This document shows, piece by piece, positions 767-57,925 of a DNA stretch of 64,000 bases. Each line of letters starts with the position of its first letter. Position 1 is the first letter of the stretch. Origin of the DNA: Naegleria gruberi (Eukaryota); assembly GCA_000004985.1 (NCBI GenBank), contig GG738878.1. One strand, 5' to 3'. A program made the translations under genes and the position numbers. Below the pieces are notes generated by a model. That model was given only the letters and a program-made list of their open reading frames with translations. It had not been told where the DNA came from and did not search any database.

Positions 767-2984
767 AGATTTAATTAAAGTAGCAACAGCAGGTAATAAA
801 ACAGCAATATGTTTTAACATATCTTTTTTCTTTTCATTTGATTCTTTCATAATTTGAATTTCACCACCTAATTTATTAATTAATTTAATTAATTTAATTA
901 ATAATAAATGTTTTAAATCAATTCTATTTTTTAATTTCTTATTCATAATATAAATAGAATCAATTAATAAACCACCAATAACAGTTTCACTTGAATGAAA
1001 TGGATTTTGATAAATACTAAAAATTAATTCAACAATTTCATTAAAATAATGTCCATTACCTAAATCAATTAAATGTGATAATGCTCTTAATGATAAATTA
1101 TCTAATTTACCCATTGATCTCTTTTTAGTTAATTGTCCTGATAAAACAGGTAAAATTGAATCTGTAATTGGATTATGATCAATTTCAGTTGCAATATTAC
1201 CTAATAAAGTAACTCTTCTATTATTTTTAATAGAATCATCTGGATTTAAATAAATATTATTAGAAATTGCAAATACTGCACTTGATGTATTTAAAATACC
1301 TCTCTTATTAAAATCATAAATTAATATATTTGAAATACATTTTGTAATATATTCAATTAAATGTTCAGATTTTTCATTAGATTCTTCAATAAATTCACGT
1401 AATGTTTTAACACTTAATGAAATATATTCTGAATTTTCAATTTTACAAATCTTTTCAATACAATTTATCATTTCTTTTATCATTTTCTCTTCAAATTTAT
1501 TATATCCACAATCATTATTTTTAGAAAATTCTAAACATTCAATAAATATTTTTAAAACTTCTTTTTGTTCAGTTGTTGTTGTTGTTAATATAATAGATTG
1601 ATTATTATTATTAGAATTATTATTATGATGTTGATTATTATTACCATGTTGATTATTATTATTAGTATTATGATGGTGATAATAATGATTTGATAATTTT
1701 AATGAACAATTTAATGCCAATTGACATGATGTACAAAATGCATTAACACTATAATTAGTATCTATATTTAAATCAATATCATGTTCTTGTTGTTTAAATG
1801 TTATAATTCTTTTATAATAATCTAATGATAAATTTCTAAATGAAATTAATAATAACTTGTTCAATTCTTCATTTTCTAATTTATTTGATAAAACAATATG
1901 ATCACATATTTTTAATACTAATACAATCATACTTTTTAATAATCTTGATTTAAATGCTTTTAATTGTTTAATTTCATTAGATTGTTTAAATGTTGTTATA
2001 TTAATAAAATATTGAACAATTTCATTCACTATTTTATATTGTTCATTACTCATTTGAGAAGGTAATCCTTCTGATAATCCTTTAAATACTCCATATAATA
2101 CACGTGCTGTATTATCACTATCAAATATAACTATTATTATATTTATATTTAATATATATATAGATGAATGTTATTATGATGTTATGTTGTTATATTGTTA
2201 TTATTGTTATGTTAAATAAATGAATAAATAGATGAATATTGTTATTATTATTATTATTGTTATTGTAAAAATATAAAAACTTACATTTAGATTCATATGA
2301 TTTCATAATTAAATAACATTCATTTAAACAAATATTAATTAGAGAATTTGTAATTTGTTGTGAATATTCAACGTGTGAATAAGAAATATCTCTCAATAAA
2401 GAAATTAAATGATAAGAGAAATATTCACCTGTAATTTTAGTTTTTTGATTCCATTTACAATGTGGTAAATGATTAACAATACCAATTAATAATGGTAATA
2501 TTTGTTCACAATATTGTAAAGATGATGAAGATGATTTACATCTAGTTAAAAAGTAGGCTAATGCAAGTGCTGATTCTTGTCCTTCTTCAGTTAATGATAA
2601 TAATGAATGTTTCTTATTATAATCATCAAAATCTGTAATTAAATCATGATCTTCATTTTCTTTATGAATAATAACTTGTTTAAATCCTTTAGAATGATGT
2701 TGTTGTTGTTGTTGTTGTTCAACATTGTTACCTCCTCCATTATTATTATTATTATTATTATTATTAGTAGTATTATTATTATTAATATTAGATCTAATAA
2801 TAGTAGTAGTAGGTAGAATAGGACATTTATGTTTAATAAAAGTTAATTTCTTTTCAATACATTGTATTTGTGAAGGTGTCTTGTCATTTAAATTTTCTAA
2901 TTTACTAATACTTTCAACTAATTCTAAAAGTATTTGTAATTGAAATGATGCTATATATTCTTTAATATTATATACTTTATTCAT
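1..2984 (-). CDS. Large Asn/Gln-rich alpha-helical protein of unknown family, partial. The 5' end (Met at 2984) lies in the window and the 3' part runs off the window start.
   Basis: Minus-strand ORF from ATG at 2984 (MNKVYNIKEYIASF...). Exon 1 is about 2984..2285 with a GTAAGT donor. An AT-rich intron of about 2131..2284 follows. Exon 2 runs 2130 down to position 1 with no stop and stays in frame (MSNEQYKIVNEIV... to ...IIKSFPSMYW). No competing plus-strand ORF of 60 aa or more exists in 1..2190. Coding (AAT)n and (CAA)n tracts lie within it. Confidence 0.5.
731..765. repeat. (ATT)n trinucleotide microsatellite, about 12 units, inside the coding region of the 1..2984 gene (poly-Asn tract on the minus strand)
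   Basis: attattattattattattattattattattatt at 731-765. Confidence 0.8.
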
Positions 2985-18728: not shown

Positions 18729-20691
18729 TTAAATCTTTGAAAAAACTTTTGAAATATCTCTTTCGTTTCTAATAAATTCATCAGTTTGTAATAAGTGTTG
18801 AGTTTGAGCTTGTTGCTCTAATACTCGTTTCATGACATTACTCAAATCATCGGTTTGTGTCTTGATAAATTGTAATTGTTCCATAATATCTTTAGAAATT
18901 AATTGAGGAACAATATTAGGATTATTCAAATCAATCTCACTATGGAAGAGACATTTTTCTAATTCAATATTCTTCTCTAATCTATTTAGAATGTTGTTAG
19001 TATAATTAATTATTATTACTTACACTTTCCCAATCATTAAATTCAATTCTAATTTTAATGCATGAATCTCCTTTTTAGTTTCATTAATAGTATGTCGTAG
19101 AGCTTCCGATAAATTTTGAGTTTTTAAAGGAGCTATATTCGAGTAATGAGTGAAATATTGATATTGACAGTACTTACAATTCGAAATAAAATTCTGAAAA
19201 TCATTTGATAAAATTGAATTCAAATCTGAATGTATCGAGTAGAGTGATGACGATACATCCTCCGAATTTGATAATTCTTCTTGTTGCTTATCAATCAACT
19301 GAATTTCACTCAATCTCTGATAATGGTATAATCTAGTTTCAAATCCTTGTAAAATTTCATTTAATTCAATTATTATACAGTTAATTAATAAATAGTCCTT
19401 ATAAATATTTGTATATTCCATATTAAAACATTCGTTTAACAACCTTAGAGTTGAATATCTTGTCAGTACATGATTAACTATCATGTTTAATTCTTCATTT
19501 CTTTTTTGTTCAAAATCTATTTTCTTAATATAATCTTGATTAATTACATTTACAGAATTCAATTCTGTTAAATCCTTTACCAGAATAGGTATATCATTTG
19601 TTATATATTGTAAAACAATTGATTTCAAATTAGCTACCTGTTTCTTAGTCTTTTCAATATTCTCAATTATTGTAGAAATATCCAAATGTTGATAATTATG
19701 TAAATGTTCTTTTTGATTATTTGCACTTTCTAATGATGCCTGTAACTTTTTATATGACGTTAAACTTGTTAAATATTGTTCCTCCGTTGTTTTATATCTA
19801 TATTAATGTGGTTAATATGATGATTGTTGATTATTATTGAATGAATACTCACATGGATGATAATCTGTTCAATTCCTTGGAGTGCTTTTCTAAATTATCC
19901 TCACCAGCATCATTTTCATTAAATTTATCCATTAATTGTTTCAGATTTTCTTCAACCATTCCATCATTTTCTAAATTCAATTCAGTTAAATTTAAGAGAG
20001 AATGATTAGAAAGCGCCTTCACATATTCTTCAACACTATTCTTAACTTGAGTCAGTATTCTAGTAAATTCCAAATTTTTCATTGAAATAGATTGAACATT
20101 CTTTAATTGTTTTTCTCCCAACTTTTCAAAATAATGTTTTAATTTATCTTTTTGAATTTTTTTCTTTTCTAATTGATTTTCCAGTATATCCAATTCTTCA
20201 TTCAATAATTCCAACTCCTTCTCTAAATCTTCAATAGGAGTTTCATCTTTATTTCTATAAAAATCATCACCCAATTCAAGTGCTTGTTCCAAATCATGTC
20301 CATGTAATATTCTTCCTTGTTTTTCCAATTCTTCAAACTCTTTAATTTCATTCTCTGTCAAGATCATGGATTCTGATTTAATAATATTACATAATTTTAA
20401 TATAAAACTTGTTGATGTTTCATTGCAATGAAAAATCCAATCAAGAACACTCGGGTCCACTGGTAAATTAAAGCCTTCTTCCTTTGATGAAGGATATGTT
20501 TCCAAATCACCATAATTCAACTTTCGTAATAAGAGATGAAGTAATTTCCCTTCCGAAGATGATGATGAAGATCCACTACCACCACTACCACTATTATGAT
20601 CAATAGCACCTCGACGAGACATTGAAGAAGAATTAAACTTTAACATTTTTTTGTTGGTGGAAATTGAATTAAATTTTGGCGGGAAAGTCAA
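18729..20691 (-). CDS. Coiled-coil protein of unknown function, 3 exons
   Basis: Exons are 20691..19852, 19797..19024 and 18981..18729. The donors are GTGAGT and GTAAGT and the introns are 54 and 42 nt. The three listed ORFs (19849..20691, 19020..19685, 18729..18929) join in frame. The product is predicted to be largely alpha-helical/coiled-coil with an N-terminal Ser/Gly-rich stretch. Confidence 0.5.
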
Positions 20692-28495: not shown

Positions 28496-31400
28496 TTATC
28501 GTTTGGTTTTTGATTGTGAGGCACTTCTAAACATCAAGCTTTGAGTTCCACCAACTGTGGCCGTAAAGTTTTGACTCATCATCGAACCCGAATCCATCAT
28601 CTTATCAAGTGGGGGAAGTTTGGAAGTAGAAGTTTTCTTTTGTGGTGGTTGGATTGTTGCTGTATTGGTTGGTTGAGGTTGTTTGGCTGCTAAAGGGTTA
28701 ATAACTCCAACATTTGGCTGTCTACCGAATGTCTTATTGTATGTTTCTTCTCTATTTACCAATTCCATCTTGTAGTACTTCATATCACGTACAGTCTTTT
28801 GAAGAAGAGCTTCCTTATCAGCTAGAGTCTGTTGAAGAACCTTAATTGTTTCAACATCTTCAGGTCTACTCTCTCTGTTTTGGTATTTGAGTTCCCATTC
28901 TCTAATTTTCTGTTCCAATAAAGTGTTTCTTTCTTCCATAATATTTTGAGCTCGAGTAAATTCAGTTTGAAGATTCTTGGTTTCTTGTATGTGTTCTTCT
29001 ATCATGTCATTGATTCGTCTCTTATGATCATCAATAAGCATTTTCTCTCTTTTCTTCCAATCTTCGTTCATTTGCACTTGAAGATCTGCATAATCTTTGG
29101 CTGCTCTCTTTTTAAGCTCTTCATATTCTGTTTTACTTTTATCCAATTGGTCTAACAACTGGGCACGTTCAGCCAAGAATTGATTTTTAAGTGATTCCTC
29201 AGTTTGATACAGTTTTTCGTTTGACACTCGAATGAGTTCATCTATTTTAGCTCTTTGTTCCTTGATTAACTCTTCAGTATTGTGCTTATCCTTCAGTCTG
29301 GCAGCCTCCATTTCCTGTTGATGTTTGGCTTCTAGACTTTGAACATATGCTTGTTGATCTTCTTTCAATTTCTCCATTTGTCTCAAAAGGGCTTCTTCTC
29401 TACCTAGGCCATCTTTTATACTATTATTAAGCATATTAATTTGATTCAAATGTTGTTGAATTTCTCGTTCACGATTTTCAATTTCTCTTTTAAGGGCTGC
29501 AATCTTAGAATCATATGTCTCTATTATATCCTTCTTTTCTTTTTCCTTTTGTCTATCTAGGGTCTTTAGAGATTCCTGTTTATCTATTTCACATTTCTCC
29601 ATGGATGTGTTGTGATTTGAAAGAATCAGTTGTATCTCTTCCATTTTCTTGGTGAGCTCATTTTCAAGGTTTGCTATTTTTCTTAACAGTTGATTCTTTT
29701 CATTCTCCAGATTATCAACTCTCAACTTCCATGATTTTTCCACAGTATTTCTCTCAGACTGCCCGTTTTCTTGAAGTTCTCTGATAAGTCTTTGTCTTTC
29801 TGAATTAAATGATTCGGTCAGTTCCATCTTGAGTTTTTTAAGCTCTTCCATGAGCCTTTGATCGAATTGTCTTTCCATTTGCAGTTTCATTTCACCCATT
29901 TCTCTAACCTTATTGCTAGCAGCAATTCTAAGCTCTTCTTTTCCCTTTTCCACAGTTAATGCGAGTCTGTTTTCGAGATCCTTTAGATCTTTTTGCAAGT
30001 TGTCTCCTCTTGCTTTTTCATCTAAGGTTTTCAATTTCTGAGCCTCGAGTCGTTGATTCAATGAAGTCTCCCTCTTCAATGCTTCTTGAAGTTTTCCGTG
30101 AAGGTCCTCCATTGATGAATTACTATCTCTGTTGAGTTGGTTAATTTGGTTCTTGAGAATATTAATCTCTGAATCTCTTTCGTCTATTATTGTTGTAAGA
30201 TCTTTCTTCAATTGATTATACCCAGCCTGAGAGCTTGATTTGAGCTCTTCTATTTGCTTTTGAATTAATCCCAAATCATGCTTAGACTTATTAGCAAGAT
30301 CTTCCAATTCCTTCTTCTTCTGCTCGATAACCGACTGGAGTTGCTTTCTTTCAATATCAAATTCATCTAATAACTTTTGCTTGAGATCTGTGAGCTGTTT
30401 GTTGGAGTTCTTAGCAAGTGTATCCACAGAATTTTCTTGGTCTCTTTTGAATTTTTCCATCTTTTCATCATAGACTTTCTTAAGTTTATCCATTTCCTCT
30501 GCAAACCTAGCTTCCATCAATGACTTTTCCTTCTCCCTCTCTATCTTAAAATTTTCAATGTCATGCAACAAATTCTGTTCTCGTTTCAGCATATCCGAAA
30601 GTTGCTTTTCCTTTTCTGCAAGTTGTTTTTGTAAAGATTGAACCATTTTGTCTTTTTCATCAATAGTTAAAGAATTTTGTGTGAGTGATTGTCTTAAGGA
30701 TGCAATTTGTTGTTCTAGAGATTTGATTTCTGATTGTTTTTGTTTGAGCTGTCTTTCTACGTCTTCCAATTTTGTAGTCATCATTGTTTCTGAAGAACCG
30801 TGTGAATCCTTAACTTCTTGAATCATTTTCCTAAGCTCATCCAACTCAGCTTCTAGTTTCTTTAAATATTCATCCTTATTGGATAACTCCAGTTTCATTG
30901 AAACAACATTCCTTTCACTCTCTTCCAACTTCGAATCCAGTAATTGTCTTCCTTTCAAAATTTTCTGAACAGTTTCTTCCTTTTCTTGTACTTCTTGACC
31001 CAGCTTTGAAACACGATTATTGAGAGAAGACTCTGATTGCTTCAGAGTTTCAATATCCTTATTCAAACGATTAATAACATCGCTCGTTGAGCCTGCCCTT
31101 TTGTCAAACTCATCTTTTTGTTGCTCTAGAGCCTTCAGCCGTTTTTGGGCTTCTTCTTCGAGTAATGCTGCAATTCTTGCCTTTTCTTCGGCCTTCAGTT
31201 GCTCAACTTTATCGTTTTGTCGTTTCTCATAATCCACTCTTAATTGTTCTTGCTCATTTAGCATTCTCGTCAACATATCATTATACTTTTTGTTATATAC
31301 TAGGACTAGATCTTCTAGTTCCTTGTTATGTTGATTCCGTAAATTAGCATCTCCTCGATTTTTGCTCTTCTCTAATTCTTCTGATATTGATGTAAATTTT

Positions 31401-31931
31401 GCTAAACGTTGCGTAAATTCATCTTTAGCAGACTGTAATGACCTAGTTAGTTCCTTAATCTTATCATCGGACTCTCTCTTCAGTAAATCTTCTCTCTCCT
31501 TAGCTTTTCTTTTAAAATCCTCGAACTCTTCCAAAGCCTTTTGCCTCTCCTGATTATGTTTCAGGGTTAAGGTTTTTACTATGTCCGTTATTTTGTTTTC
31601 ATTATTCTTCTTTTCTATTTGTTCTCGAAATAAGGCTATTTTAGCTGTTGTATCTTTAATTATCTATTTAAAATCATCATCATAATAATAATAATTTAGA
31701 AAATGTAAAGAAAATGATCCGACGTACATCTTCAATCTCTGATTCATACGCATCAGCTAACGAATTTAATTGAAATTCATGGTCATCATTTTTAGTGTTT
31801 AAATGATAAATAACTTTCGTCAGCTGAGCAATCTTTTTGCTCATCTTGTGATGAAAATCAGGAAATCCATTGGCAATTTTATTTGCACTAATGCTGCTAT
31901 TTACATTGTCCTTACTCTTGGACTGTTTCAT
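28496..31931 (-). CDS. FAM184-family long coiled-coil protein
   Basis: Exons are 31931..31728 and 31663..28496, with a GTACGT donor and a 64-nt intron. The N-terminus KMSKKIAQLTKVIYHLNTKNDDHEFQL matches human FAM184A KMSKKIAQLTKVIYALNTKNDEHESAI. The C-terminus ...NRESRPEDVETIKVLQ...YYKMELVNREETYNKTFGRQPNVGVINPLA matches ...RESKPEDIQMITELK...FYQLELVNRETNFNKVFNSSPTVGVINPLA. About 1000 aa lie between these two conserved ends and are predicted to be continuous coiled coil. Confidence 0.8.
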
Positions 31932-43377: not shown

Positions 43378-44634
43378 ATGAAAAAACTTGACTGCTCTGT
43401 GCAAAATTATTCCTGGGGAAGAAAAGGAAGCGAAAGTACAGTTGGAATTTTGTACGCCAACACAATAGTGGAAGGAAAAATTGATGAACAAAAACCCTAT
43501 GCAGAATTATGGATGGGAACTCATCCAAGTGGCCCATCTAAAGTAAAATTAGATGATCAGTCAGGTTCGGAATTACTTTCTGAATTTTTAAAACGAAATG
43601 TAGAACAATACTTTTCAAAAGAGGAAGTGAATGAATTCTTTGAAAAGAAGGGATATGAATTTGCTTCATTACCTTATCTTTTCAAAATTTTATCTGTAAA
43701 TCAAGCCCTTTCCATTCAGGCCCATCCTGATCAGACACTCGCTCAAAAATTGTTCAAAAACGACCCAGAACACTATAAGGATCCTTACCACAAACCAGAA
43801 CTATGTTGTGCATTGACAAAGTTTGAGGCTCTTTGTGCATTTCAAAATTTGGAATCAATTGTGGAAAATATCAAAAATATTGAATCGCTCCAATCACTTT
43901 TGAGAGCTCAAAATAATGAATTAATTGACTCTATTCTAAGTAATGATGTAAAGGATTCATCTCAAGATGATAGAAAGATTATTTTGAAGAGTTTATTTAA
44001 AAGTTTGATGACATCACCAAAATCTCTCGTAGAAGCCCATCTTCCAAACCTTGTAAAGAACCTCCAAAATTCTACCTCATCCAGAGATCAATTAATTCTT
44101 AGACTTTACAAAGATTATGGAAATGATATTGGATGTTTCTCAGTTTATTTCCTTAACCATGTTGAGTTACAACCTGGGGAAGGATTATTCTTAGGTCCAA
44201 ACGAACCTCACTCTTATCTTTATGGAGATTGTGTGGAGTGTATGGCATCATCTGACAATGTTGTTAGAGCAGGTTTGACACCAAAATTCATTGATACTGA
44301 AACACTTATTGAAATGTTGACGTACGACGATCATGCATTAGAAAAGATGAAGATGGGTGGTGAAAAAGTCAACCAATTTGAAACTTTATATACCACACCT
44401 GTTTCAGAATTCAAGGTTCAAAAAATTGTCTTGTCTAAAGGGGATAAGTACACTCTTACTCCAAATGCTATTACTATTGCTATTGTTATCAATGGAAGTG
44501 GTTTAGTGAATGGTGAAAACTCCAAGAAAGGAGATGTACTTCTTTTCCCTTTTAATTCCAAAACAGATCTTGAAAATTCTCATGAGGAATCTATGGAAAT
44601 ATTTGCTGCTACAACTAATATTCAAGCTAATTAG
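43378..44634 (+). CDS. mpi: Mannose-6-phosphate isomerase (phosphomannose isomerase type I)
   Basis: ATG at 43378, with an open GTG upstream at 43351. MKKLDCSVQNYSWGRKGSES aligns with human MPI LSCAVQQYAWGKMGSNS. The zinc/active-site regions are LPYLFKILSVNQALSIQAHPDQTLAQKL, YKDPYHKPELCCALTKFEALCAF and LGPNEPHSYLYGDCVECMASSDNVVRAGLTPK. Stop TAG at 44632-44634. Confidence 0.85.
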   Translation: MKKLDCSVQNYSWGRKGSESTVGILYANTIVEGKIDEQKPYAELWMGTHPSGPSKVKLDDQSGSELLSEFLKRNVEQYFSKEEVNEFFEKKGYEFASLPYLFKILSVNQALSIQAHPDQTLAQKLFKNDPEHYKDPYHKPELCCALTKFEALCAFQNLESIVENIKNIESLQSLLRAQNNELIDSILSNDVKDSSQDDRKIILKSLFKSLMTSPKSLVEAHLPNLVKNLQNSTSSRDQLILRLYKDYGNDIGCFSVYFLNHVELQPGEGLFLGPNEPHSYLYGDCVECMASSDNVVRAGLTPKFIDTETLIEMLTYDDHALEKMKMGGEKVNQFETLYTTPVSEFKVQKIVLSKGDKYTLTPNAITIAIVINGSGLVNGENSKKGDVLLFPFNSKTDLENSHEESMEIFAATTNIQAN

Positions 44635-46112
44635 TCATATTCGAAAAAATCTGTGTTTGGCATTTCTGGCAAGCTTTCAGGTGCTTCATCATATGTTTCT
44701 TTTTTGATTTGAGTAAAGTTATTTGTGAATGTTAGAAATTTGTTGGATTGAACAGTTTTCTGATCCTCATGTTTTACTTTCTTTAACAGTTCATCAGTGC
44801 TTAATTGATTAACTGGAAAGTAAGAAATACACTTTTGTAGAAAGTGGGGCAAAGGCTTTCCACAACAAATGCAAAAGGAAGTAGATAACTGAGCTAAATA
44901 CTGGAAGAATTGATGCTCATTCTCTTTCCACGTTTGAAATTTTATATCTTCTCCTATCTTGAAATTTTTAAAGTAGTTCAAAGTCTTTTCAATATCTTCC
45001 AAGTATTTGAGATCATAGTTTGATGTGTTCATATTTGGAGAGTTTAAAAATGTTGAAAAGTTTTCAATATCTGAAATATAGGTTAAAAGAAATTTCTTCA
45101 AATTAAGTAAATGTTGAATTCTATCTAGCCTTTTCATTTCGCTTTCCTCTGTTTTAACTTGGACTGAAGATAGCAATAATTCTTGTATTTGAGATACTAG
45201 ACTTCTGAAGAATTGTTCAATCTTAGGTATCAGTAATTGACTAGCCAATAATTCACTTCGTTTTTTGTAAATAAATTCCAATCTTTGAATTTCTTCACTA
45301 CTGTTATTGTTTAATGTATTCGGTAGACTGTCTTTGCTTTTTTGTTTAATAAAATGAAATGTAAATGGTTTGATGAATGAGGCATTAGAATAAAGAAAAC
45401 TAGGGCTTTCAACTTTGGGGGAAGAAATGTTTTGGCTTCTCGAGTATGATGAAGATATAAATGGTTGGGGAAGGAGATTGCATGTTGAGACAGAAAAGTT
45501 AGATGTCTTATCAACAAAAGGAGGTAGGATAAAGCTGTTTAGGGATGGAGAATGATTTTGGGATGGAGAGTATCTTACAGGAGTAATATTAGATTCTGAT
45601 AACTGTTTGTAGTTACCATTGTTTTGTGGTTTAGCTTTAAGGGCAGTAGATTGTTGGGAAACAACATTACTGAAAGAGTTGGTTTTGAAATGAATTTGGA
45701 GAAGTGAGCGAGGTTGAGAGGGAGGAAGGTGTCGAATAAGAGCAGAATTAGGTGTTGTAGGAGTGTTTGGGTTAATCATTTTCGATGACGATGATGGAGA
45801 GGTAAAACTGGAAATGTTGTTGTCATCTCGTGGAGGAATGAGTACTTGTAATTTCTTTTCCTCCAGAAATGAAGCAGAAAGTTTTTGTTTTTGATAGCTC
45901 CCTACTGTATTTTCAGTCAATTTCTTATCAGGACTTGTGTTATTCGTGAATAAGTCCCCTCCGCTCGCATGCATGTTACTGTCCACTTCACTGCAATCAT
46001 TAAATTCTAACATCTTCTTCCAAGATGTGATTGATCCACTATCTGTTGATGACTTATCATAAAACTGATTGTTGGGCGAATTACTTTCCGTAGATGTGTA
46101 TGGATTGTACAT
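44631..46112 (-). CDS. Hypothetical Ser/Asn-rich protein (493 aa)
   Basis: Long minus-strand ORF. Its TAA stop (plus-strand tta at 44631-44633) overlaps the mpi TAG at 44632-44634. The C-terminal half has predicted helical and Cys-containing segments (CICCGKPLPHF). No family recognised. Confidence 0.4.
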   Translation of the reverse strand: MYNPYTSTESNSPNNQFYDKSSTDSGSITSWKKMLEFNDCSEVDSNMHASGGDLFTNNTSPDKKLTENTVGSYQKQKLSASFLEEKKLQVLIPPRDDNNISSFTSPSSSSKMINPNTPTTPNSALIRHLPPSQPRSLLQIHFKTNSFSNVVSQQSTALKAKPQNNGNYKQLSESNITPVRYSPSQNHSPSLNSFILPPFVDKTSNFSVSTCNLLPQPFISSSYSRSQNISSPKVESPSFLYSNASFIKPFTFHFIKQKSKDSLPNTLNNNSSEEIQRLEFIYKKRSELLASQLLIPKIEQFFRSLVSQIQELLLSSVQVKTEESEMKRLDRIQHLLNLKKFLLTYISDIENFSTFLNSPNMNTSNYDLKYLEDIEKTLNYFKNFKIGEDIKFQTWKENEHQFFQYLAQLSTSFCICCGKPLPHFLQKCISYFPVNQLSTDELLKKVKHEDQKTVQSNKFLTFTNNFTQIKKETYDEAPESLPEMPNTDFFEYD

Positions 46113-47042: not shown

Positions 47043-48816
47043 CTATTGAATTATTGTTCCAAAACATTGGAAAGAGCTTTGAATGGCATTTTTCTTACAT
47101 AAACCAATATCAATTATCATATTCTGCTTTGGTTCTGTATAAGTTGTAAAGTAGGCATTCGTTTTAGGGGATTTCTCTAACTTGTATATTACAAGAGGAG
47201 TCGGAGCTTCATTATCAACAATTGAATTGCATGGAATCTCTGAGAATGAAGCTAACATCCTTAATTGACCATATTTTGCTACCTCGTTTGTAATTACTGA
47301 TAAATATGTTTTGTTTACATCTTTCATCATGTCCACATATTCCTCCAACAATAAATTGGTATTATTTGTTAAAGTCTTACTTAATGACTCCAATGTTTTG
47401 GTAACTAAATCCAACTCGTTTGATAGATCCAAAATGGATAGTACAGATGGATCATATTTTATCCTTTCCTTGAAATACTGAGCTAACAAAAATTCCGTTA
47501 ATCCTCCTCCAGGTAGAACATACGGATTGGAAACAAAGAGTTTGAGACTCGTTTGGAGACCTTTCATCACTTCTTCCAATTCTTGCGTTATCAGTGGAGA
47601 GTTCGAGCACAGTACAACAGAGTATACGTCCGACATTTCATTGCTCACATGAATACAGCTTGAGTGGTTTAAATGATAAATTATAATAATAAAAATCTTA
47701 CCTTCTACCTCCAATTTCCACTTCAGATACAGATGTCAAAGAACCAATCTCAGAATTGGTCAACTCGGTAAATATTGAGGACAAAGGGGTGCAGCCAGAG
47801 ATTTTCTTGAAATTTTCAAAATTGAATACTGAAATTCTTTCTAAACAGAGAATACCCTCATTTGCTAGAATTAATTGAACACTTTTTTCAATTACTTTTT
47901 GAGAAACGACAAGTTGAATTCCCAACTTTTTCCATTCCTTGATACAATCTCTTAGTTTGGAAATAAATTCCTTAGAAGTTGTTTTTTGAGGAACCAACTT
48001 AACTGTTGCTCCTATATTACTCTCACTATATTCTTCCATTTTCTTTGCTTCTATATATACAGATTCCTTTAAAAGTACAACTTTGACATTGGTTAAATCT
48101 TGTTTTTTTCTCGATTTTATGATGTGTGGGAATGGCATGTTAAAGTAAAGACCATTCACTACTCGGCTATCTGAAACCCTTACATTATCTCCATTGATAT
48201 GATGATAAATGAAATCATTTCTCGCTCCAAATCTATTCTTACTCATTTTAGGTAGAATATCACATAATAATTTAAGGGACAACATTGTCATGTGCTCCAC
48301 TTCATATTGAGATAGATCCAAAAGTTTATCACTTCTCCATTTCAATATAGATAATTGTTTTAAATTATTAAAATCCACGTCTACCACTAATTTGTGACTT
48401 TCAACAAATTCCTCAATCCACTGAGGAATAATATTCTGCAATAGATAAGTCAATTTAAATAAAGAATAATTTCCGGTCTTGTAATTAATAAATAAATTCA
48501 ATATCAAGTAACCAAAACAACTTCCATAACTTCCACATTGTATGAGATGAGACTTGAGAAAACTTTTAATAATCTTCATCACAACCAATTCTTCATCATT
48601 AAATTCAGTCCTATCAAATAATTCAAATTTTAATAATCCCGAAGAACAATTTGTCATACAAATATCAGAATCTCTTTTTAATTCTTTTCCAATAATTGTA
48701 ATACATCCATTAGGTCCACAATTAGTAAAAAGTCGAAGTGTTTCATAGAATACAGAAAGGGGAGAACCTTTGTATTTTGATCGACTTGTTGAGGGTGGAG
48801 TTGTATTATTGAGCAT
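47043..48816 (-). CDS. Highly divergent group-II chaperonin (TCP-1/CCT superfamily) protein, closest in character to the BBS-type chaperonin-like proteins (MKKS/BBS10/BBS12)
   Basis: Exons are 48816..47702 and 47658..47043, with a GTAAGA donor and a 43-nt intron. It carries degenerate versions of the CCT signature blocks. CGPNGCITIIGK replaces GPKGMDKM, QCGSYGSCFGYLI replaces GDGTTS, GILCLERISVFNFENFKKISGCTPLSS is an apical-to-intermediate hinge as in MKKS ([27 protein letters not shown]), and YVLPGGGLTEFLLAQYFKER matches the VPGGGA.E ATP-binding loop (MKKS has LLGGGCTETHLAAYIRHK). Confidence 0.6.
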
Positions 48817-48840
48817 TTTTTTAAATTGTATTCAAATTGT

Positions 48841-50362: not shown

Positions 50363-52210
50363 TTAAACTTTTATTGGAGCCTTAGTTTCCTGTTCTCTTT
50401 GTAAACCTCTGAACATTTTACCGAATGGTTTGTTAGGAATGAATCTTCCACTTCCTGCTTCCACATTTAATTGACCATTTTCCCAGACAACTTTACCATT
50501 AGAGATTGTCACTTCAACAACTCCTGTTACTTGTCTTCCTTCATAGACATTATAGTCAATGTTTTGATGATGTGTTTTAGCACTGATGATTCTTGTAGCA
50601 TTTGGATTCAAAATGATAATGTCAGCATCAGATCCAACTTGAATAGCTCCTTTTTGTGGGTAAATGTTAAAGATTTGAGCAGCTTCAGTGCTGGTAACTC
50701 TAACAAAATCACTTGGAGATAATTCACCACTTGCTACGAGTTTATCAAAGAGAACTGACATTCTATCTTCTAAGCCATTGACACCATTTGGAATCTTTCT
50801 AAAATCACCAAGACCCATCTTTTTTTGCTCACTATCGAAAGTGCAGTGGTCAGTTCCTGTTAAATCAAGAATTCTATTCTTAAGACCTGCAATAAGCGCC
50901 TTTTGATCCTCAATTCCTCTAATTGGAGGTGACATGACAAATCTTGCTCTATCCATCCAACTGCCCTTATAATATACACTGTCATCAAGTGATAAACCAG
51001 CAGCGATTGGCTCACCAACAATTCTATAGCCCTTTGCTTTAGCATGAGCAACTTCTTCCATTGCTTCCTTACTCATGACATGAACAATATCTGCCAATTA
51101 ATTAGTTGTTCAAGTTCAAATAAGGTAAAATAACTTACATAATGGAGCATTACCAACAGAGTAGGCAATTTCAGAGGCACGTCGAACAGCCTCAGCTTCA
51201 ACATTTGAAGGTCTGCTTTGTGGATGGCCCTCAGGTCCTGTAATATTAAATTCATTGAACAACCTTGTTTGGCCTTTTACTACCAAATCACCATTCTCTG
51301 CATGCACTTGAGAAATGGCTCCAATACTCATGGCAGTCTTGAATCCATTATATAATTCCTCATCATTGACTTGGAAAACTCCCTTATAAGCCATGAAGAA
51401 TTTAAAACTATTAATTCCATGATTTTCCACAAGTTCTTTCATTTGTTGAGCAGTATTTTCATTAAATCCTGTAATTCCAACATGGAATGAATAATCTGCA
51501 CAAGCCAATTTTTCTCCTCTCCTCTTATATTCATTGACAATATCAAGATAAGTTTCTCCTTTAGCTGGAATTGCACTTTATCAACATCTTTCCAATTGAC
51601 TAGTAAATTATAAACAACTTACAAATCCATAATCATGGTGGTTCCTCCTGCAAGTGCAGCTCTTGTTCCGTGATAAAAGTCATCCTTACTAATTGTTCCC
51701 ACTTTTGGATAATTGTGTGTGATTAAACTATTAAATATAACATAATTACATACTAAATTTAAGTGCCAAATGGACATGAGGATCAATACCTCCAGGCATT
51801 ACATATCTGTTAGAAGCATCAATTAATCTGACTTGACGATCCTCCTTCTCTTCTTGTTTTAGAATGTGATCGTAACTTTGATCATCATGAAGCACATTAA
51901 CAATTTTTCCATCTTTAATAACTACTGTTCCTTTGAATTCAAGATCGTGCGTTACGATGGTACCTCCATGGATTACTATTGTGATTGGTGCATATCGTAT
52001 GGTAACAAGTTGTGGTTCATCTTGATGTTGTGCCAACACTACACAAAGAAACAGAGAAATGATCAATGTGGTGATCAAAAGAAATGTTGTTCGCCCTTGC
52101 ATTGTTTGTTGGATTTTTCTTTTTTCTTGTGGTATGCACTTTACAATGCTGTTTGAGTCATTTGCGTCTTTTTGGAATAGCTTTTCTCTTTTGGTTTGCC
52201 TGATGAACAA
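50363..52210 (-). CDS. dpys: Dihydropyrimidinase (cyclic amidohydrolase, DHPase/hydantoinase family), 4 exons
   Basis: Exons are 52210..51754, 51701..51623, 51575..51139 and 51090..50363. The introns are 52, 47 and 48 nt with GTATGT/GTAAGT donors. Splicing restores [74 protein letters not shown], which aligns with human DPYS [58 protein letters not shown]...CCDYSLHV. Further conserved blocks are NSFKFFMAYK, VHAENGD, GITGPEGHPQSRP, VEAEAVRRA, PLYVVHVMS, IPNGVNGLEDRMSV and GSDADIIILNP. The N-terminal roughly 55 aa, including the hydrophobic TTFLLITTLIISLFLCVVLA, are an extension. The start is either M 52210 or M 52102. Confidence 0.85.
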
Positions 52211-52321: not shown

Positions 52322-54363
52322 TTAGACGGAGAACTTCCAGGTCTTACACATGAAATCTTCACCACCAGAAACAAATGTTTCACTATCAATGAATGCACAA
52401 GTGGAAACACCCAAATGGTGAGCCATGTCAGTCTTAACTCTCTTACCAGCAGCAAGATCCCAAACAATCAAGTTCTTATCAAGTGAACAAGTAAGCATAT
52501 ACTTGCTATCATCAGACCAATCGACATCAACAACAGCAGATGAGTGATAAGTCATGTTGGAATACTTTGGTTTCCATGATGCAGTATCAAAAATAACAAC
52601 ATCATAAGCACTATCAGCTGAAGCTAAAAGAGCACCATCTGGAGAGTAAGAAACCTTTTGAATCTTGGCTGTGTTTTCAGCAAGTTCAGTGGCACCGTCA
52701 ACAATCTTTTGACCAGCAACCTTATAAACACGAATCTTCTTATCCTTACAACCAACAGCAATTTCACTACCATCAGGCTTAATTGAGATAGATTGTGGAT
52801 CCTTATCAATCTTGACTTCAGACAAAATCTTACCATCAGCAGAGAGCAAAGTAGCACCAACGTGAGTTGAGATGGCAACCAAATTTCCATCAGCAGAGAC
52901 AGAAACATCATTTGGAGAACCGAGCAAAGTAGTGGCATCACCAACATATGTGAAATCTGAAAGATTGACCAAACGAACTTCGTTATTTTGAGCAGCAGTA
53001 ATCAACTTGTCACCAGCAATAGCCATAGTATTAATAGTAACATCTTGGTGCCCATTTCCTTGAACCTTAGCAACACTACCAACACCAACTTCCCATTTAA
53101 TCAATTGACCACCAGTTGAACAAGTGTAGAAGAATTTACCACCAGATTTCTTATCAACAACAATCTTGTTGACACGAGCATTGTGACCCAAAATCTTTCT
53201 TTCAACACGAGTACAATCCTTAGAGAGAACGTTCAAATCACCGTTCAAAGAAATTGAAACAGGAACACCAGCAATTACTGAAACACCAACTTGAATATCA
53301 TTGGTAGAATCTCCAATAACAGTGGTAGCAACACATTCCTTAGTATCAATATTCCACAATTTGACAGACTTATCACCAGAAGCAGTGACAATATGCTTGT
53401 TGTCCAAATAGGACAAACCATAGATTGAGAGCTTGTGACCATTGGTTTGAGACAATTCACCAAGTTTTTCACCAGTCTTTCCTTCAAAGAAAATAACCTT
53501 CTTATCAGATGAGCAAGAAGCAAAAGTACTTCCGTCTGGTGAATAACGAATACAGTTAATGAAACGTTCGTGATCCTTGTTTGAGTGAGAGAACTTGAAT
53601 GGAGGACCAGTGAAAAAGTTCAAAGACAAATCAGCACCACCAGTGGCAATTCTGAATGGTCTTTCTGGACGAGAATCACAAGTGAGAACTTCCTTTGAGT
53701 GAGCAGAAATTTCACCAGTATTAGTACCCATATCATAAGCAAAAACAGCTCCGTATTCTTGTTTACCATCACCAACAGCAACAACACGTTGGGAATCACC
53801 AGTCCAAGCCAAATCACGAACACTCTTTGACAAGACACGCTTTTCCAATTTGATGGTCTTGTCAGCATTTTCAGTTGACCAAATACGAACATTACCTGAC
53901 TCATCTCCTGAAGCAATGTAAAAACCTGTTGGTGCGAACTTTGCAACATTGACCTTATGAGTGTGTTGAGTATAATAGTCAATAGAAAGCAAATTGTTCA
54001 AATCACGGATCAAAACATTGGTTCCAGAACCATAGGTGAATTTACCAGACTTGGAGGCAGGAGCAGCAGAAATAAAAGTTGGACGGCCTCTTTCGGTATT
54101 TGGGACACCACCGTATACGTTTTCTTTATAAAATGTTATTGTTGTTATTTGCAGTAGTATCACACGACATCATCATGATTCAAACAAATCATTGTATACA
54201 ACAGATCAAAGTGTCGGTATCATTATTAATCATCAATGATAATACATTGTATTCATTATCCGCATCAAATCATCATGTATACACCAACATCAAAAAAGAA
54301 TCATCAAGCTTAAGATATTCCTTGCCCAAGCGAGAAAAAATACTTACGGAGAGAGATGGACAT
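52322..54363 (-). CDS. wdr1: Actin-interacting protein 1 (Aip1 / WD repeat protein 1), 2 exons
   Basis: Exon 1 is 54363..54348 (MSISL, GTAAGT donor). The intron is 54124..54347 (224 nt). Exon 2 is 54123..52322. The N-terminus MSISLQNVYGGVPNTERGRPTFISAAP...FTYGSG aligns with D. discoideum Aip1 [27 protein letters not shown]...IVYASG. 14 WD repeats are recognisable, for example YAPTGFYIASGD, GEISAHSK, FKFSHSNKDHERFINCIRYSPDG, IYGLSYLDNKHIVTASGDKSVKLWN and DWSDDSKYMLTCSLDKNLIVWDL. Confidence 0.85.
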
Positions 54364-55940: not shown

Positions 55941-56863
55941 TTAATGAAAGTGCAAGTATAATATTACTAAAGCACTGAGGAAAATCCACTTCCAAAAAGA
56001 TCCAAGCTGCATCTTCTTTTTCTGTTTCTTTTGTTGGTGTTGAATAATCTCATTTTCATCAAAAGGTATTCCATTATTATATTTAGCAGCATTTGTAGTA
56101 TCTCCAAGTCTTGAATAAGTGAGAGCAATAAATTGGTAGACTCTCTCCTCGTTAGATTTATCTAATTCAATAGATTTCAAGTAATCGCCAAGTGCTTGTT
56201 TGTATTTTTCCAGTTCAAAATATGAAGATCCTCTATTAATAAAGGCAGAGCTATTGTGGGCTCGAGCTTGATTGCCTCGGTGAAATCCTTGATGGCATTT
56301 TCGTACTCGCCATTTTGATGATATGCTGAACCTCTACTTAAATATGCTGTTGAAAACTTTGAGTTCAATTCAATAGATTTTGAAAAGTCCTCGATAGCTT
56401 TGAGGTATTCCTTACTTTCCAAGTGAACAACTCCTCTTCTACTGTAAATCAGATAATCAGGGCTTTCTTCAATTACCTTATTATAATCTTTAAGAGATTT
56501 ATCAGTTTCTCCAATCTCATAATACAAATGTCCTCTAATTGTGTAAATTAATATCTTGTTTGTTGAATTAAAGTCCAAAGCAAAATTAAAATCCGAAATG
56601 GCTTTCTCCTTTTCCTTCATTTCTAAATACACAAGACCTCTACTGCAATAAACATCACCATTTTTTGGTTTTAATTTGAGAGCTTCGGAATAGTCAGATA
56701 TTGCTTTTTCAAATTCTTTCAATTCAAAATATGAACTTGCTCTGTTGTTGAGAGCAGTAAAATTATTCTTATCAAATTGGAGGGCATGGGAAAATTCATC
56801 AATGGCTATTTTAAATTTTCCACTATTGTGTGCAGACAAACCGGCAAGGAGGTGTTGTTCCAT
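55941..56863 (-). CDS. Tetratricopeptide-repeat (TPR) protein with a C-terminal transmembrane tail anchor. The CDS is split by a single-base frame break near 56243-56250.
   Basis: ORF 56177..56863 has about six 34-aa TPR units, each with an ...ALNNRASSYFELKEFEKAISDYSEALKLKP... pattern. Near plus coordinates 56243-56250 the frame dies (...AIKLEPTIALPLLIEDLHILNWK...*). The +2 frame continues the TPR with RGSSYFELEKYKQALGDYLKSIELDKSNEERVYQFIALTYSRLGD and ends in the hydrophobic tail SFWKWIFLSALVILYLHFH* (ORF 55941..56180). One extra A in ttattaATAgagg (tta-aat-aga-gga) would restore a single frame. Confidence 0.55.
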
Positions 56864-56967
56864 TTGTTTAAATTAGTTTTATTAATAAAGATAACACAAA
56901 CAATAAATTGTAAATAAGAGAGTGTTTTAGATTGAACAGGGCTTAGTATTTTTTACGAACAATGTAT

Positions 56968-57040
56968 TCCCCCTTAGCTCAGTCGGTAGAGCGTCAGACT
57001 GTTAATCTGCAGGTCGGTGGTTCGAGCCCACCAGGGGGAG
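56968..57040 (+). tRNA. tRNA-Asn(GUU): tRNA-Asn (anticodon GUU)
   Basis: A 73-nt cloverleaf. The acceptor stem TCCCCCT pairs with AGGGGGA (57033-57039) and G is the discriminator. The D-arm is GCTC AGTCGGTAG AGC. The anticodon stem-loop TCAGA CTGTTAA TCTG(C) has GTT at positions 34-36 and U33. The T-arm is GGTGG TTCGAGC CCACC. There is no intron. Confidence 0.85.
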
Positions 57041-57925
57041 TAATGTTTTATTTTCAATATCTTAATTTATTGTTATTATTCATTTCTGTTTTCACTCCCT
57101 TGTAGTGCAGTCTGCCTTTTGGTGGAATGTTGAACCGAAAAACAATTTGAAAATTCATTAGAAGAAGCATTAATCTTATAAAAGGAAGGTAGTTGACTGT
57201 CCGTTTAAATACACTTGAATAGGATACAACTTTTTTTCGTTGTTTGTAACTTCATGGTTGACAATCAAAGTATTCGTGGACTCCACAACATTGGAAAGTC
57301 TTGGACTGGAAAATCTCTTATTGTTAGGCAGTGAAAATGACAAGAAGGCTTACCTGAAGTCTTAATTTCCTTTTTCCATACACCATCAATCTAATGCGTG
57401 ACAATGGATTCAACCAAACCCTCTGTTTTCAAAAACCTTTTCACACATTCACATAAATAAAAATCTTATAAACGAGCTCGTGGGATCTTCTCTTCATCCC
57501 GTTTCACCAGCTCTTTAAGATACATTCCCCATCTTCAGTACTATATTTTACAACAACAATTATAGCTAAAATCGCTTTAATTCATTTAGGAAGATCATTG
57601 GAGATTGTCCAACAACAGAAATATTTTTTAATTTTAATATTTATTTAATAATCTAAATTGTTAATATCCTGATTTAAACAAACACTTTTAAACTCGTTCA
57701 ATAATTTTTAGACTTGTAGTGAAGAGCAACTCACGTACAACTCCAACCAACATCTTATTTGAAAATCAAAAACGATACCGTACTCAAACAAATAAGGAAA
57801 AGTTGGCAAGAAATCATTTCGAACAACATCAAAATTGTATTTAATTACAACCTTTTGTACAGAGTTTCGTTTCATCAGTTTACACTCTATCGACATCACT
57901 CGACCCGATATAACTGAATTGTATT

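What the first reader, a model, noticed from the sequence alone, without database searches (positions are those of the whole stretch)
47043..48816. Highly divergent BBS/MKKS-like chaperonin in an apparently dictyostelid-like genome
The protein keeps the architectural blocks of group-II chaperonins: a GP.G loop, a GDGTT-position loop, an apical hinge, and a C-terminal VLPGGGLTE ATP loop. Every block is degenerated in the same way as in the ciliopathy chaperonin-like proteins MKKS/BBS10/BBS12, not as in canonical CCT subunits. Dictyostelids lack cilia and are not known to keep BBS chaperonins. So this is either evidence that the source organism is ciliated or flagellated, or a repurposed or novel CCT-like paralogue, possibly a CCT-assembly factor acting outside cilia.
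Basis: partly seen in the sequence, partly recalled or inferred. Interest (0 to 1): 0.6.

Follow-up and report, generated by a model that had tools for sequence, protein, structure and literature searches.

The report
Naegleria MKKS/BBS6-like dead chaperonin gene
This is the already-annotated MKKS/BBS6-like chaperonin gene of the amoeboflagellate Naegleria gruberi, not of a dictyostelid, so a cilium-linked chaperonin relative is expected here and the finding is largely ordinary.

Summary
Window 47043-48816 (minus strand) encodes a 576-aa protein from two exons joined by a 43-nt intron.

The genome guess is wrong. Both halves are 100% identical to two adjacent GenBank models of Naegleria gruberi, each already named "McKusick-Kaufman/Bardet-Biedl syndromes chaperonin".

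The protein is not a canonical CCT subunit.
- In an exhaustive profile search of 1.84 billion proteins, the best named non-Naegleria hits are animal MKKS.
- An animal-MKKS profile fits it 46 bits better than a thermosome/CCT profile.
- It sits in a 100%-bootstrap clade of MKKS-like proteins that lack GDGTT.
- It shares MKKS signature substitutions and the MKKS insertion site.

The tested catalytic positions have lost their Asp (or, less securely aligned, Lys). That includes the P-loop Asp that other MKKS keep, so it is most likely not an ATPase.

The gene is under purifying selection (dN/dS 0.195 between two other Naegleria species), with a conserved intron position and conserved gene order.

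New here:
- a corrected single-gene model;
- MKKS-like proteins also in diplonemids, Ceratiomyxa and Mesostigma, wider than the published "vertebrate-specific" or "arose in Opimoda" views.

Interest is low.

The parts
47702..48816 (-). Exon 1 (codons 1-371 plus 2 nt of codon 372). It covers the N-terminal equatorial, intermediate and apical domains.
   Evidence: ORF; spliced translation. It is colinear with the N. lovaniensis orthologue P0002 from residue 22 onward. GenBank model P0001 (319 aa) covers only residues 54-371 and then reads into the intron.
47659..47701 (-). 43-nt phase-2 GT..AG intron (GTAAGA...TCAAG).
   Evidence: Removing it restores the frame and gives the junction GR|SCI. The same junction and phase are seen in N. 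lovaniensis (53-nt intron) and in a third Naegleria-like species (48-nt intron).
47043..47658 (-). Exon 2 (residues 372-576 plus the stop at 47043-47045). It covers the C-terminal intermediate and equatorial domains.
   Evidence: It is 100% identical to GenBank XP_002675407.1/EFC42663.1 (P0004, 197 aa), also named MKKS/BBS chaperonin.
48706..48717 (-). GPNG (res 34-37), the conserved nucleotide-binding Gly-Pro loop.
   Evidence: Aligns with thermosome LGPKG and MKKS YGPxG. Mukherjee et al. report that the GP dipeptide is conserved in the BBS chaperonins (PMC2846930).
48643..48654 (-). T-N-C-S (res 55-58) in place of TNDG. The Asp is replaced by Cys.
   Evidence: Animal MKKS have T-S-x-S at this position.
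48520..48534 (-). G-S-Y-G-S (res 95-99) in place of the GDGTT phosphate-binding loop. The Asp is replaced by Ser.
   Evidence: The other two Naegleria species have G-F-Y-G-S. Animal and other protist MKKS-like proteins keep the Asp (xDGG).
47884..47901 (-). QKVIEK (res 306-311), an apical-domain block (thermosome QKGIDD, MKKS QKVIHP).
47583..47585 (-). Gln397 at the position of the catalytic Asp (Mm-cpn D386, in the DE.ER motif).
   Evidence: hmmalign to the thermosome/CCT HMM and the MAFFT alignment. MKKS also lack the Asp here. CCT8 and thermosomes keep it.
47493..47519 (-). VLPGGGLTE (res 419-427), the C-terminal nucleotide-binding GGG loop.
   Evidence: It is degenerate (VVAGSGVTE) in the other two Naegleria species.
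47214..47390 (-). Approximate position (res ~462-520) of a ~45-residue insertion in the C-terminal equatorial domain.
   Evidence: The GGG-to-last-helix segment is 134 aa here, 84-90 aa in thermosome/CCT and 127-178 aa in five of six animal MKKS. The matching stretch in the AF2 model of the orthologue has pLDDT below 50.

Best explanation
This is the Naegleria gruberi member, most likely the orthologue, of the MKKS/BBS6 family. That family is a catalytically inactive offshoot of the group-II (CCT/thermosome) chaperonins.

Shown here: the protein keeps the whole three-domain chaperonin fold and the Gly-Pro loop. N. gruberi also keeps the GGG loop. The tested hydrolysis-critical positions have lost their Asp (TNDG Asp to Cys, GDGTT Asp to Ser, Mm-cpn D386 position to Gln). 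The nucleotide-sensing Lys also appears lost, but that column is less securely aligned. The gene is intact, spliced and under purifying selection in three Naegleria species.

Inferred by analogy with mammalian BBS6: it does not fold substrates by an ATP cycle of its own. Instead it acts as a non-catalytic, substrate-holding adaptor that works with CCT subunits near the basal body. There it would stabilise beta-propeller BBS proteins (BBS7/BBS2) for assembly of the BBSome. In Naegleria this would be needed when amoebae build basal bodies and flagella de novo.
For: Identity and organism:
- 100% identity to two N. gruberi GenBank models already named MKKS/BBS chaperonin.

Chaperonin superfamily:
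- Pfam E 5e-29.
- The AF2 model of the 44%-identical N. lovaniensis orthologue (pLDDT 84.6) superposes full-length on Mm-cpn, thermosome and CCT chains, TM 0.63-0.79.

MKKS affinity:
- The exhaustive hmmsearch of 1.84e9 representatives gives GDGTT-less proteins as top hits. All six of the metazoan top hits checked that carry a descriptive name are called MKKS.
- MKKS-core HMM scores 169.4 bits against 122.9 bits for the thermosome/CCT HMM.
- hhalign scores 268 (E 2e-35) against 204 (E 5e-26).
- The NJ tree puts it in an 87-sequence MKKS-like clade with bootstrap 1.00, and CCT8 is the sister group.
- Shared signatures are T-x-S/C-S for TNDG, QK[VL]I for QKGI, loss of the D386 Asp, and xxD...K.NA at the C-terminus (the C-terminal D is also present in the CCT8-type P0133). 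It also shares the insertion site and the short C-tail.
- BLASTP to human MKKS gives E 2e-19.

Functional gene:
- dN/dS 0.195, conserved intron position and conserved gene order.

Mechanism by analogy:
- BBS6/10/12 with CCT1-5 and CCT8 mediate BBS7 association and BBSome assembly. MKKS is not expected to be an ATPase (PMC9325507, PMC2846930, PMC3370246).
Against: - Identity to any animal MKKS is only 22-27%.
- Inside the MKKS-like clade the Naegleria branch is long (1.72 against a median of 1.34) and its position is unresolved, with bootstrap at most 0.27.
- The tree is NJ only, and the clade consists of fast-evolving sequences, so long-branch attraction is not excluded.
- By pairwise BLAST one CCT8-type protein (P0133, 84.7 bits) scores about as well as the best MKKS (91.3 bits).
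- Naegleria lacks two MKKS hallmarks, the DGG Asp and the HP of QKVIHP.
- No database-derived BBS10 or BBS12 sequence was available for comparison.
- No expression, localisation or interaction data for this protein were found.
- That N. gruberi has a BBSome rests on my own knowledge of Fritz-Laylin et al. 2010, which I could not read.
Confidence: 0.72

Rival explanations
1. It is a lineage-specific, fast-evolving CCT8-derived paralogue of Heterolobosea or Discoba. On this view it lost its ATPase motifs independently and only resembles MKKS through convergence and long-branch attraction. Its role, for example a tubulin or basal-body assembly factor, would be unrelated to the BBSome.
For: A CCT8-type sequence scores almost as high as MKKS in pairwise BLAST. 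CCT8 is the sister of the whole clade. The DGG and HP hallmarks of MKKS are missing. Resolution inside the clade is poor. Published surveys place the origin of BBS6 in Opimoda, not Discoba (PMC10074162).
Against: Profile methods clearly prefer MKKS: +46 bits by HMM and 268 against 204 by hhalign. The A3 profile gives CCT8 P0133 only 51 bits, against 80-92 bits for MKKS. The insertion site and the truncated C-tail are shared with MKKS. Intermediate protist sequences (diplonemids, Ceratiomyxa, MMETSP) carry QK[TL]IHP and DGG, which bridges Naegleria to animal MKKS.
Confidence: 0.15
2. It is an orthologue of BBS10 or BBS12 rather than of MKKS/BBS6.
For: All three are divergent chaperonin-like proteins. 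No database-derived BBS10 or BBS12 sequence could be included here. Only about 30 of the 150 listed hits could be looked up by name.
Against: Every metazoan top hit with a descriptive name is MKKS. At 576 aa with one insertion it fits MKKS (570 aa), not BBS10 or BBS12 (723 and 710 aa, with three and five insertions; PMC9325507). A memory-typed, unvalidated human BBS10 probe gave no significant match to the Naegleria protein and none to any member of the MKKS-like clade.
Confidence: 0.05
3. It is one of the eight canonical CCT subunits, only badly conserved.
For: It has the group-II chaperonin fold and a Pfam Cpn60_TCP1 match.
Against: The best PDB CCT match is only E 2e-5, and archaeal thermosomes score better (3e-12). 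No single subunit is preferred. GDGTT and the catalytic Asp are absent. A real CCT8 from the same search matches human CCT8 at E 3e-140.
Confidence: 0.01
4. It is a decaying pseudogene or an annotation artefact.
For: The catalytic motifs are lost. The public annotation splits it into two short models.
Against: The spliced ORF is intact in three species. The intron position and phase are conserved. dN/dS is 0.195. Gene order is conserved.
Confidence: 0.02

Closest known systems
MKKS/BBS6 (McKusick-Kaufman/Bardet-Biedl syndrome 6 chaperonin-like protein) of animals
   Same: - Similar length (576 aa against about 570 aa) and the same three-domain group-II fold.
- The GP loop is retained. The TNDG Asp and the D386-type catalytic Asp are lost.
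- QKVI block, xxD...K.NA C-terminal motif, an insertion between the GGG loop and the last helix, and a short C-terminal tail.
- It gives the best profile and HMM scores.
   Different: - Only 22-27% identity.
- The Asp of the GDGTT-position loop that MKKS keep (xDGG) is Ser or Phe in Naegleria.
- QKVIHP is QKVIEK or QKLIDK.
- The GGG loop is eroded in two of the three Naegleria species.
- No BBS10 or BBS12 partner is known in Naegleria.
MKKS-like proteins of other protists (Flectonema neradi, Diplonema ambulator, Ceratiomyxa fruticulosa, MMETSP transcripts, unnamed Logan/ENA contigs P0024, P0025)
   Same: They sit in the same NJ sub-cluster as Naegleria. They share ...G.GVTEF after the GGG loop, have long branches, and lack GDGTT.
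   Different: They keep the DGG Asp and mostly the IHP motif. Support for the grouping is weak, with bootstrap at most 0.27.
CCT8 (TCP-1 theta)
   Same: It is the sister group of the MKKS-like clade in the NJ tree, which agrees with the published CCT8 origin of the BBS chaperonins (PMC2846930). The CCT8-type P0133 also has D instead of EP in the C-terminal motif.
   Different: CCT8 keeps a GD.G-type loop and the catalytic Asp, lacks the C-terminal insertion, and is highly conserved (E 3e-140 to human). The Naegleria protein has none of these properties.
Archaeal thermosome / Mm-cpn
   Same: These are the best solved-structure matches by sequence (E 3e-12) and by fold (TM up to 0.79).
   Different: Thermosomes have the complete ATPase motif set and form homo- or hetero-oligomeric rings. 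The Naegleria protein lacks the catalytic residues.
Dictyostelium discoideum DDB_G0268902 (BBS12-like chaperonin reported by Ewerling et al. 2023)
   Different: It comes from a different organism and has a different reported affinity (BBS12-like, best BLAST hits to thermosomes).

Membership tests
Group-II chaperonin superfamily (Pfam PF00118 Cpn60_TCP1) | Significant match to the family profile above the curated cut-off | tested here: met
   E 5.1e-29 and 101.7 bits against a cut-off of 34.3. Only residues 202-575 align.
Group-II chaperonin superfamily (Pfam PF00118 Cpn60_TCP1) | Three-domain (equatorial-intermediate-apical) fold over the full length | tested here: met
   The AF2 model of the N. 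lovaniensis orthologue has pLDDT 84.6 and pTM 0.85. Foldseek gives TM 0.63-0.79 over about 580 columns to Mm-cpn, thermosome and CCT chains. This was tested on the orthologue (44% identical), not on the N. gruberi protein itself.
Group-II chaperonin superfamily (Pfam PF00118 Cpn60_TCP1) | Intact ATP-hydrolysis machinery (TNDG Asp, GDGTT Asp, nucleotide-sensing Lys, D386-type catalytic Asp) | tested here: not met
   The positions read TNCS, GSYGS and Gln397, and the Lys column reads D or N. The protein is therefore a structural member but not an active chaperonin ATPase.
Canonical CCT subunit (CCT1-8) | Strong, specific match to one of the eight subunit orthogroups | tested here: not met
   The best CCT chain in the PDB scores E 2e-5, and several subunits score about equally. 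Thermosomes score better. A true CCT8 scores E 3e-140.
MKKS/BBS6 | Closest relatives in an unbiased, exhaustive search are MKKS | tested here: met
   Top non-Naegleria hits have E 1e-21 to 1e-17. All six metazoan top hits with a descriptive name are 'molecular chaperone MKKS(-like)' or 'McKusick-Kaufman/Bardet-Biedl syndromes putative chaperonin'; two more are unnamed animal proteins.
MKKS/BBS6 | Scores better with an MKKS profile than with a thermosome/CCT profile | tested here: met
   169.4 against 122.9 bits by hmmsearch. Score 268 against 204 by hhalign.
MKKS/BBS6 | Monophyly with MKKS in a phylogeny that includes CCT8 and thermosomes | tested here: inconclusive
   The NJ tree gives bootstrap 1.00 for the 87-sequence clade. 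However, it is distance-based, long-branch attraction is possible, CCT1-7, BBS10 and BBS12 were not demonstrably sampled, and the inner placement is unresolved.
MKKS/BBS6 | Family signature substitutions (T-S-x-S for TNDG; xDGG for GDGTT; QKVIHP; loss of D386 Asp; xxD...K.NA) | tested here: inconclusive
   Shared: T-x-C-S-S, QKVI, D386 loss, IID...KKNA. Not shared: the DGG Asp and the HP dipeptide.
MKKS/BBS6 | Insertion in the C-terminal equatorial domain and loss of the long C-terminal tail | tested here: met
   The GGG-to-EP segment is 134 aa here, 84-90 aa in thermosome/CCT and 127-178 aa in five of six animal MKKS. The tail is 22 aa here, 34-62 aa in thermosome/CCT and 30-31 aa in MKKS.
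MKKS/BBS6 | Reciprocal best hit against the complete N. gruberi proteome | not testable with these tools
   Only this 64-kb window of the genome was available.
MKKS/BBS6 | Basal-body or centrosome localisation, and binding to CCT and BBS7/BBSome intermediates | not testable with these tools
   This needs experiments. No Naegleria data were found in the literature searches.
BBS10 / BBS12 | Length of about 710-723 aa with three to five insertions, and closest relatives named BBS10 or BBS12 | tested here: not met
   The protein is 576 aa with one insertion. No hit named BBS10 or BBS12 appeared among about 30 hits looked up by name. A memory-typed BBS10 probe gave no match but is unvalidated.

The most novel reading that the evidence does not exclude
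MKKS/BBS6 may be neither vertebrate-specific nor an innovation of Opimoda. [quoted passage not shown] The Naegleria form would be the most eroded one, having lost even the last conserved P-loop Asp. It would apparently work without BBS10 or BBS12, which would show that the adaptor function needs no nucleotide hydrolysis. Naegleria's synchronous de novo basal-body assembly would then be a clean system to test what BBS6 does.
Probability: 0.5. Interest if true: 0.4.

Novelty: already known. Interest (0 to 1): 0.2.

Why it matters
For the genome scan, this is a correct protein call on a wrong organism guess, and the apparent paradox is not real. Two modest points remain.

- The public N. gruberi annotation splits the gene into two truncated models (319 aa and 197 aa) because a 43-nt intron was missed. 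This may be one reason orthologue surveys could overlook it.
- Together with the diplonemid, Ceratiomyxa and Mesostigma homologues, it suggests that BBS6-type chaperonins are much older and more widespread than the medical-genetics literature states ("vertebrate-specific") and than a recent survey states ("arose early in Opimoda"). This bears on how BBSome assembly worked in early eukaryotes.

Tried and rejected
- The word-indexed homologue search was run three times (single protein, 3-row profile, 38-row profile) and found only Naegleria sequences.
- The first AF2 run on a 3-sequence alignment gave pLDDT 36 and was discarded.
The structure was therefore predicted for the N. lovaniensis orthologue.
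- A MAFFT alignment that included the exon-2 fragment together with P0003 misplaced the fragment and was discarded.
- The afdb50 fold library was unavailable, so there was no structural comparison with AlphaFold MKKS, BBS10 or BBS12 models.
- An exact look-up of P0004 in the contig index found nothing.
- I looked for cilia, IFT, BBSome or dynein genes in the window. None were found. The WD40 candidate is AIP1/WDR1.
- Literature searches for Naegleria together with MKKS or BBS6 found no paper that discusses this gene. The N. gruberi genome paper is not held.
- dN/dS between N. gruberi and the other species could not be computed because synonymous sites are saturated (pS 0.76).
It could not be validated and carries little weight.
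- Rejected readings: canonical CCT subunit, pseudogene, dictyostelid origin.
Full report
**1. What is in the sequence**

The interval 47043-48816 is exactly spanned by two minus-strand ORFs, 47698..48816 (372 aa) and 47043..47714 (223 aa). Reading the DNA shows a GTAAGA...TCAAG element of 43 nt at 47659-47701. Removing it joins the frames and gives a 576-aa protein with the junction ...EIGGR|SCIHV....

The window is AT-rich (about 30% G+C) and clearly eukaryotic.

Pfam Cpn60_TCP1 matches with E 5.1e-29 and 101.7 bits (gathering cut-off 34.3), but only over residues 202-575. Among solved structures, archaeal thermosomes are the best matches (E 3e-12). Every CCT subunit is weak (E 2e-5 or worse), and none is preferred.

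- GPNG at residues 34-37
- G-S-Y-G-S at the GDGTT position, residues 95-99
- the apical QKVIEK block, residues 306-311
- VLPGGGLTE at residues 419-427

**2. Whose gene it is**

The homologue search returned P0001, which is 100% identical over residues 54-371 and is named by NCBI [quoted passage not shown]. It also returned a full-length 580-aa orthologue from N. lovaniensis (P0002; 42% identity by BLASTP; 44% in the MAFFT alignment) and a third Naegleria-like protein (P0003).

The exhaustive search additionally recovered P0004, which is XP_002675407.1/EFC42663.1. It is 197 aa, 100% identical to exon 2, and carries the same NCBI name.

The window is therefore Naegleria gruberi, a heterolobosean amoeboflagellate, and not a dictyostelid.

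The public annotation splits it into two truncated models, for two reasons. The 43-nt intron was read through to a stop (P0001 ends ...GGRR), and an internal Met was used as the start.

My single-gene model is supported in three ways:
- It is colinear with N. lovaniensis from residue 22 to the end.
- A phase-2 intron lies at the identical GR|S position in N. lovaniensis (53 nt) and in the third species (48 nt).
- Gene order is conserved: amidohydrolase, arrestin-domain protein, this gene, then phosphomannose isomerase, a KANSL2-type zinc-finger protein and a DHHC palmitoyltransferase. This order is seen in the window, in N. lovaniensis, and, as far as the phosphomannose isomerase gene at the end of that locus, in species 3.

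**3. What family it belongs to**

I searched a profile of the Naegleria proteins exhaustively against 1.84 billion representative proteins. Only 81 proteins reached E 1e-10. The top 31 non-Naegleria hits all lack a GDGTT motif. The first GDGTT-bearing hit, a nanohaloarchaeal thermosome, appears only at E 6e-14.

Of the ten top full-length hits I looked up by name:
- six are animal proteins named MKKS or MKKS-like (brittle star, amphioxus, sea urchin, hemichordate, mussel, frog);
- two are unnamed animal proteins (millipede, pearl oyster);
- two carry no name or organism.

Further evidence for the MKKS affinity:
- A local HMM built from the 41 full-length members of the animal MKKS core scores the N. 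gruberi protein at 169.4 bits. An HMM built from the thermosome/CCT hits gives 122.9 bits. The N. lovaniensis protein gives 159.9 against 117.4 bits.
- Profile-profile alignment agrees, with score 268 (E 2e-35, columns 22-480) against 204 (E 5e-26).
- In a neighbour-joining tree (110 sequences, 484 columns, 200 bootstraps) the Naegleria pair lies in an 87-sequence GDGTT-less clade that contains all named MKKS, with bootstrap 1.00. The sister group (bootstrap 0.62) is a pair that includes P0133. The PDB search identifies P0133 as a CCT8 orthologue (E 3e-140). This matches the published derivation of the BBS chaperonins from the CCT8 lineage (PMC2846930).
- A bona fide amphioxus MKKS shows the same PDB pattern as the Naegleria protein, with thermosomes scoring above CCT subunits.

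Column-level signatures and architecture:

| Feature | Thermosome/CCT | Animal MKKS | Naegleria |
|---|---|---|---|
| TNDG block | TNDG | T-S-x-S | T-N-C-S / T-C-C-S |
| Apical block | QKGIDD | QKVIHP | QKVIEK / QKLIDK |
| DE.ER catalytic Asp (Mm-cpn D386) | Asp | lost | Gln / Leu |
| C-terminal motif | EP...K | LD.....K.NA | IIDIGLCKKNA |
| GGG loop to last helix | 84-90 aa | 127-178 aa (five of six) | 134 / 138 aa |
| C-terminal tail | 34-62 aa | 30-31 aa | 22 / 29 aa |

Points that weaken the case:
- Naegleria lacks the Asp of the xDGG loop that all other MKKS-like proteins keep. It is Ser96 in N. gruberi and Phe in the other two species.
- It lacks the HP dipeptide of QKVIHP.
- The C-terminal D in place of EP is also found in the CCT8-type P0133, so it is not specific to MKKS.
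- Its branch is long, and its position inside the clade is unresolved.
- One CCT8-type protein scores nearly as well as MKKS in pairwise BLAST.
- I had no database-derived BBS10 or BBS12 sequences.

An exploratory probe gave some further support. A memory-typed BBS10 does not match, but that probe could not be validated.

I conclude that membership of the MKKS/BBS6 family is well supported, at roughly 0.8. Strict orthology is probable but not proven.

**4. Structure**

With a 112-sequence alignment, AlphaFold2 gave a confident model of the N. lovaniensis orthologue (pLDDT 84.6, pTM 0.85).

The N-terminal 200 residues, which Pfam cannot align, are modelled at pLDDT 80-97. Foldseek aligns the whole chain to Mm-cpn, thermosome and every CCT subunit at TM 0.63-0.79 and 12-16% identity. 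The complete equatorial-intermediate-apical architecture is therefore retained.

The apical segment that carries the lid has normal length (84 aa against 76-82 aa). The low-confidence stretches are a loop in the lid region (261-270) and the MKKS-type insertion (467-523).

**5. How it most likely works**

Shown:
- The tested hydrolysis-critical positions have lost their Asp (TNDG Asp, GDGTT Asp, D386-type Asp). The nucleotide-sensing Lys also appears lost, although that column is less securely aligned.
- The GP loop is conserved.
- The GGG loop is intact only in N. gruberi. It reads AGSGV in the other two species.
- The gene is under purifying selection. dN/dS is 0.195 between N. lovaniensis and species 3 (dS 0.63). 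Comparisons with N. gruberi are saturated.

Inferred: the protein is a non-catalytic chaperonin-fold adaptor.

In mammals, BBS6, BBS10 and BBS12 associate with CCT1-5 and CCT8. They hold BBS7 and hand it on for assembly of the BBS2-7-9 core of the BBSome. They localise to the basal body and are thought not to be ATPases (PMC9325507, PMC3370246, PMC2846930). Naegleria makes basal bodies and two flagella de novo within about an hour, from newly transcribed conserved genes (PMC4819266). From my own knowledge of the genome paper, which I could not access, it encodes IFT and BBSome components.

The simplest reading is that this protein does the BBS6 job during flagellate differentiation. No Naegleria-specific expression or localisation data were found, so this step is analogy only.

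**6. Comparison with what is known, and novelty**

The gene and its name have been in GenBank since the N. gruberi genome annotation, so the finding itself is already known. Two small things are new.

The first is the corrected 576-aa model.

The second is the wider phyletic picture. Named members of the MKKS-like clade include:
- the diplonemids Flectonema neradi and Diplonema ambulator (Discoba);
- Ceratiomyxa fruticulosa (Amoebozoa);
- MMETSP marine-protist transcripts.

Mesostigma viride (900 aa) was too long to be placed in the tree, but it groups with the MKKS cluster by BLAST and scores 211 bits with the MKKS HMM against 87 bits with the thermosome/CCT HMM.

Reviews still call BBS6/10/12 "vertebrate-specific" (PMC9325507). 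The broadest survey I found reports BBS6 outside animals only in Mastigamoeba and Malawimonas, and concludes that chaperonin-like BBS proteins "arose early in Opimoda" (PMC10074162). Discoba and Archaeplastida members would push the origin back towards the last eukaryotic common ancestor. That is a modest, specialist-level correction and needs a proper phylogeny.

That same paper describes a BBS12-like chaperonin in Dictyostelium (DDB_G0268902).

**7. Rest of the window**

No ciliary, IFT, BBSome or dynein gene lies in the 64 kb. The neighbours are ordinary housekeeping or unknown genes, and there is one tRNA-Asn.

**8. Verdict**

The gene is already annotated and is of low general interest. 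There is a minor annotation fix and a minor evolutionary lead.

Noticed in passing
window 47043-48816 (-): The public N. gruberi annotation carries this gene as two separate truncated models: P0001 (319 aa) and XP_002675407.1 (197 aa). A 43-nt phase-2 intron was missed, and the first 53 codons were dropped. The Logan gene call for a third Naegleria-like species (P0003) is truncated at the same intron.
   Followed up: yes
window 48817-48840: Only 24 nt separate the stop of the upstream arrestin-domain gene (48841) from the ATG of the MKKS-like gene (48816). The gap is 62 nt in N. lovaniensis. The promoter must lie inside the neighbouring gene, or the two genes are co-transcribed.
   Followed up: no
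hits P0023, P0049, P0019, P0145, P0189, P0193 (one search list): MKKS-like, GDGTT-less chaperonins occur in diplonemids (Flectonema, Diplonema), Ceratiomyxa and unnamed MMETSP protists, and a Mesostigma protein groups with them by BLAST and HMM score. This range is wider than the 'vertebrate-specific' or 'arose in Opimoda' statements in the literature.
   Followed up: partly
window 52322-54163 (-): A 613-aa double beta-propeller WD40 protein. It is an AIP1/WDR1 actin-interacting protein orthologue (PDB E 4e-112), not a ciliary WD40 protein.
   Followed up: yes
window 44631-46112 (-): A 493-aa Ser/Asn/Pro-rich ORF with no Pfam family. A 529-aa ORF, also without a Pfam family, sits at the corresponding place in N. 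lovaniensis (L001 10960-12549).
   Followed up: no
window 50363-51097 (-): This ORF matches only the C-terminal part of Amidohydro_1 (dihydropyrimidinase-like). The N. lovaniensis gene encodes 555 aa, so further exons and introns must lie upstream in the window.
   Followed up: no
window 56967-57041 (+): A tRNA-Asn (GTT) gene next to a 228-aa TPR protein (56177-56863, minus strand).
   Followed up: no
window 1-2000: G+C falls to 18.6% here, against about 27-38% across the rest of the window.
   Followed up: no
window 19849-20691 (-) and 28496-31534 (-): A HAUS/augmin subunit-3-like ORF and a 1012-aa coiled-coil ORF with a FAM184-like match. These are microtubule or centrosome-related candidates, but they were not examined further.
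   Followed up: no
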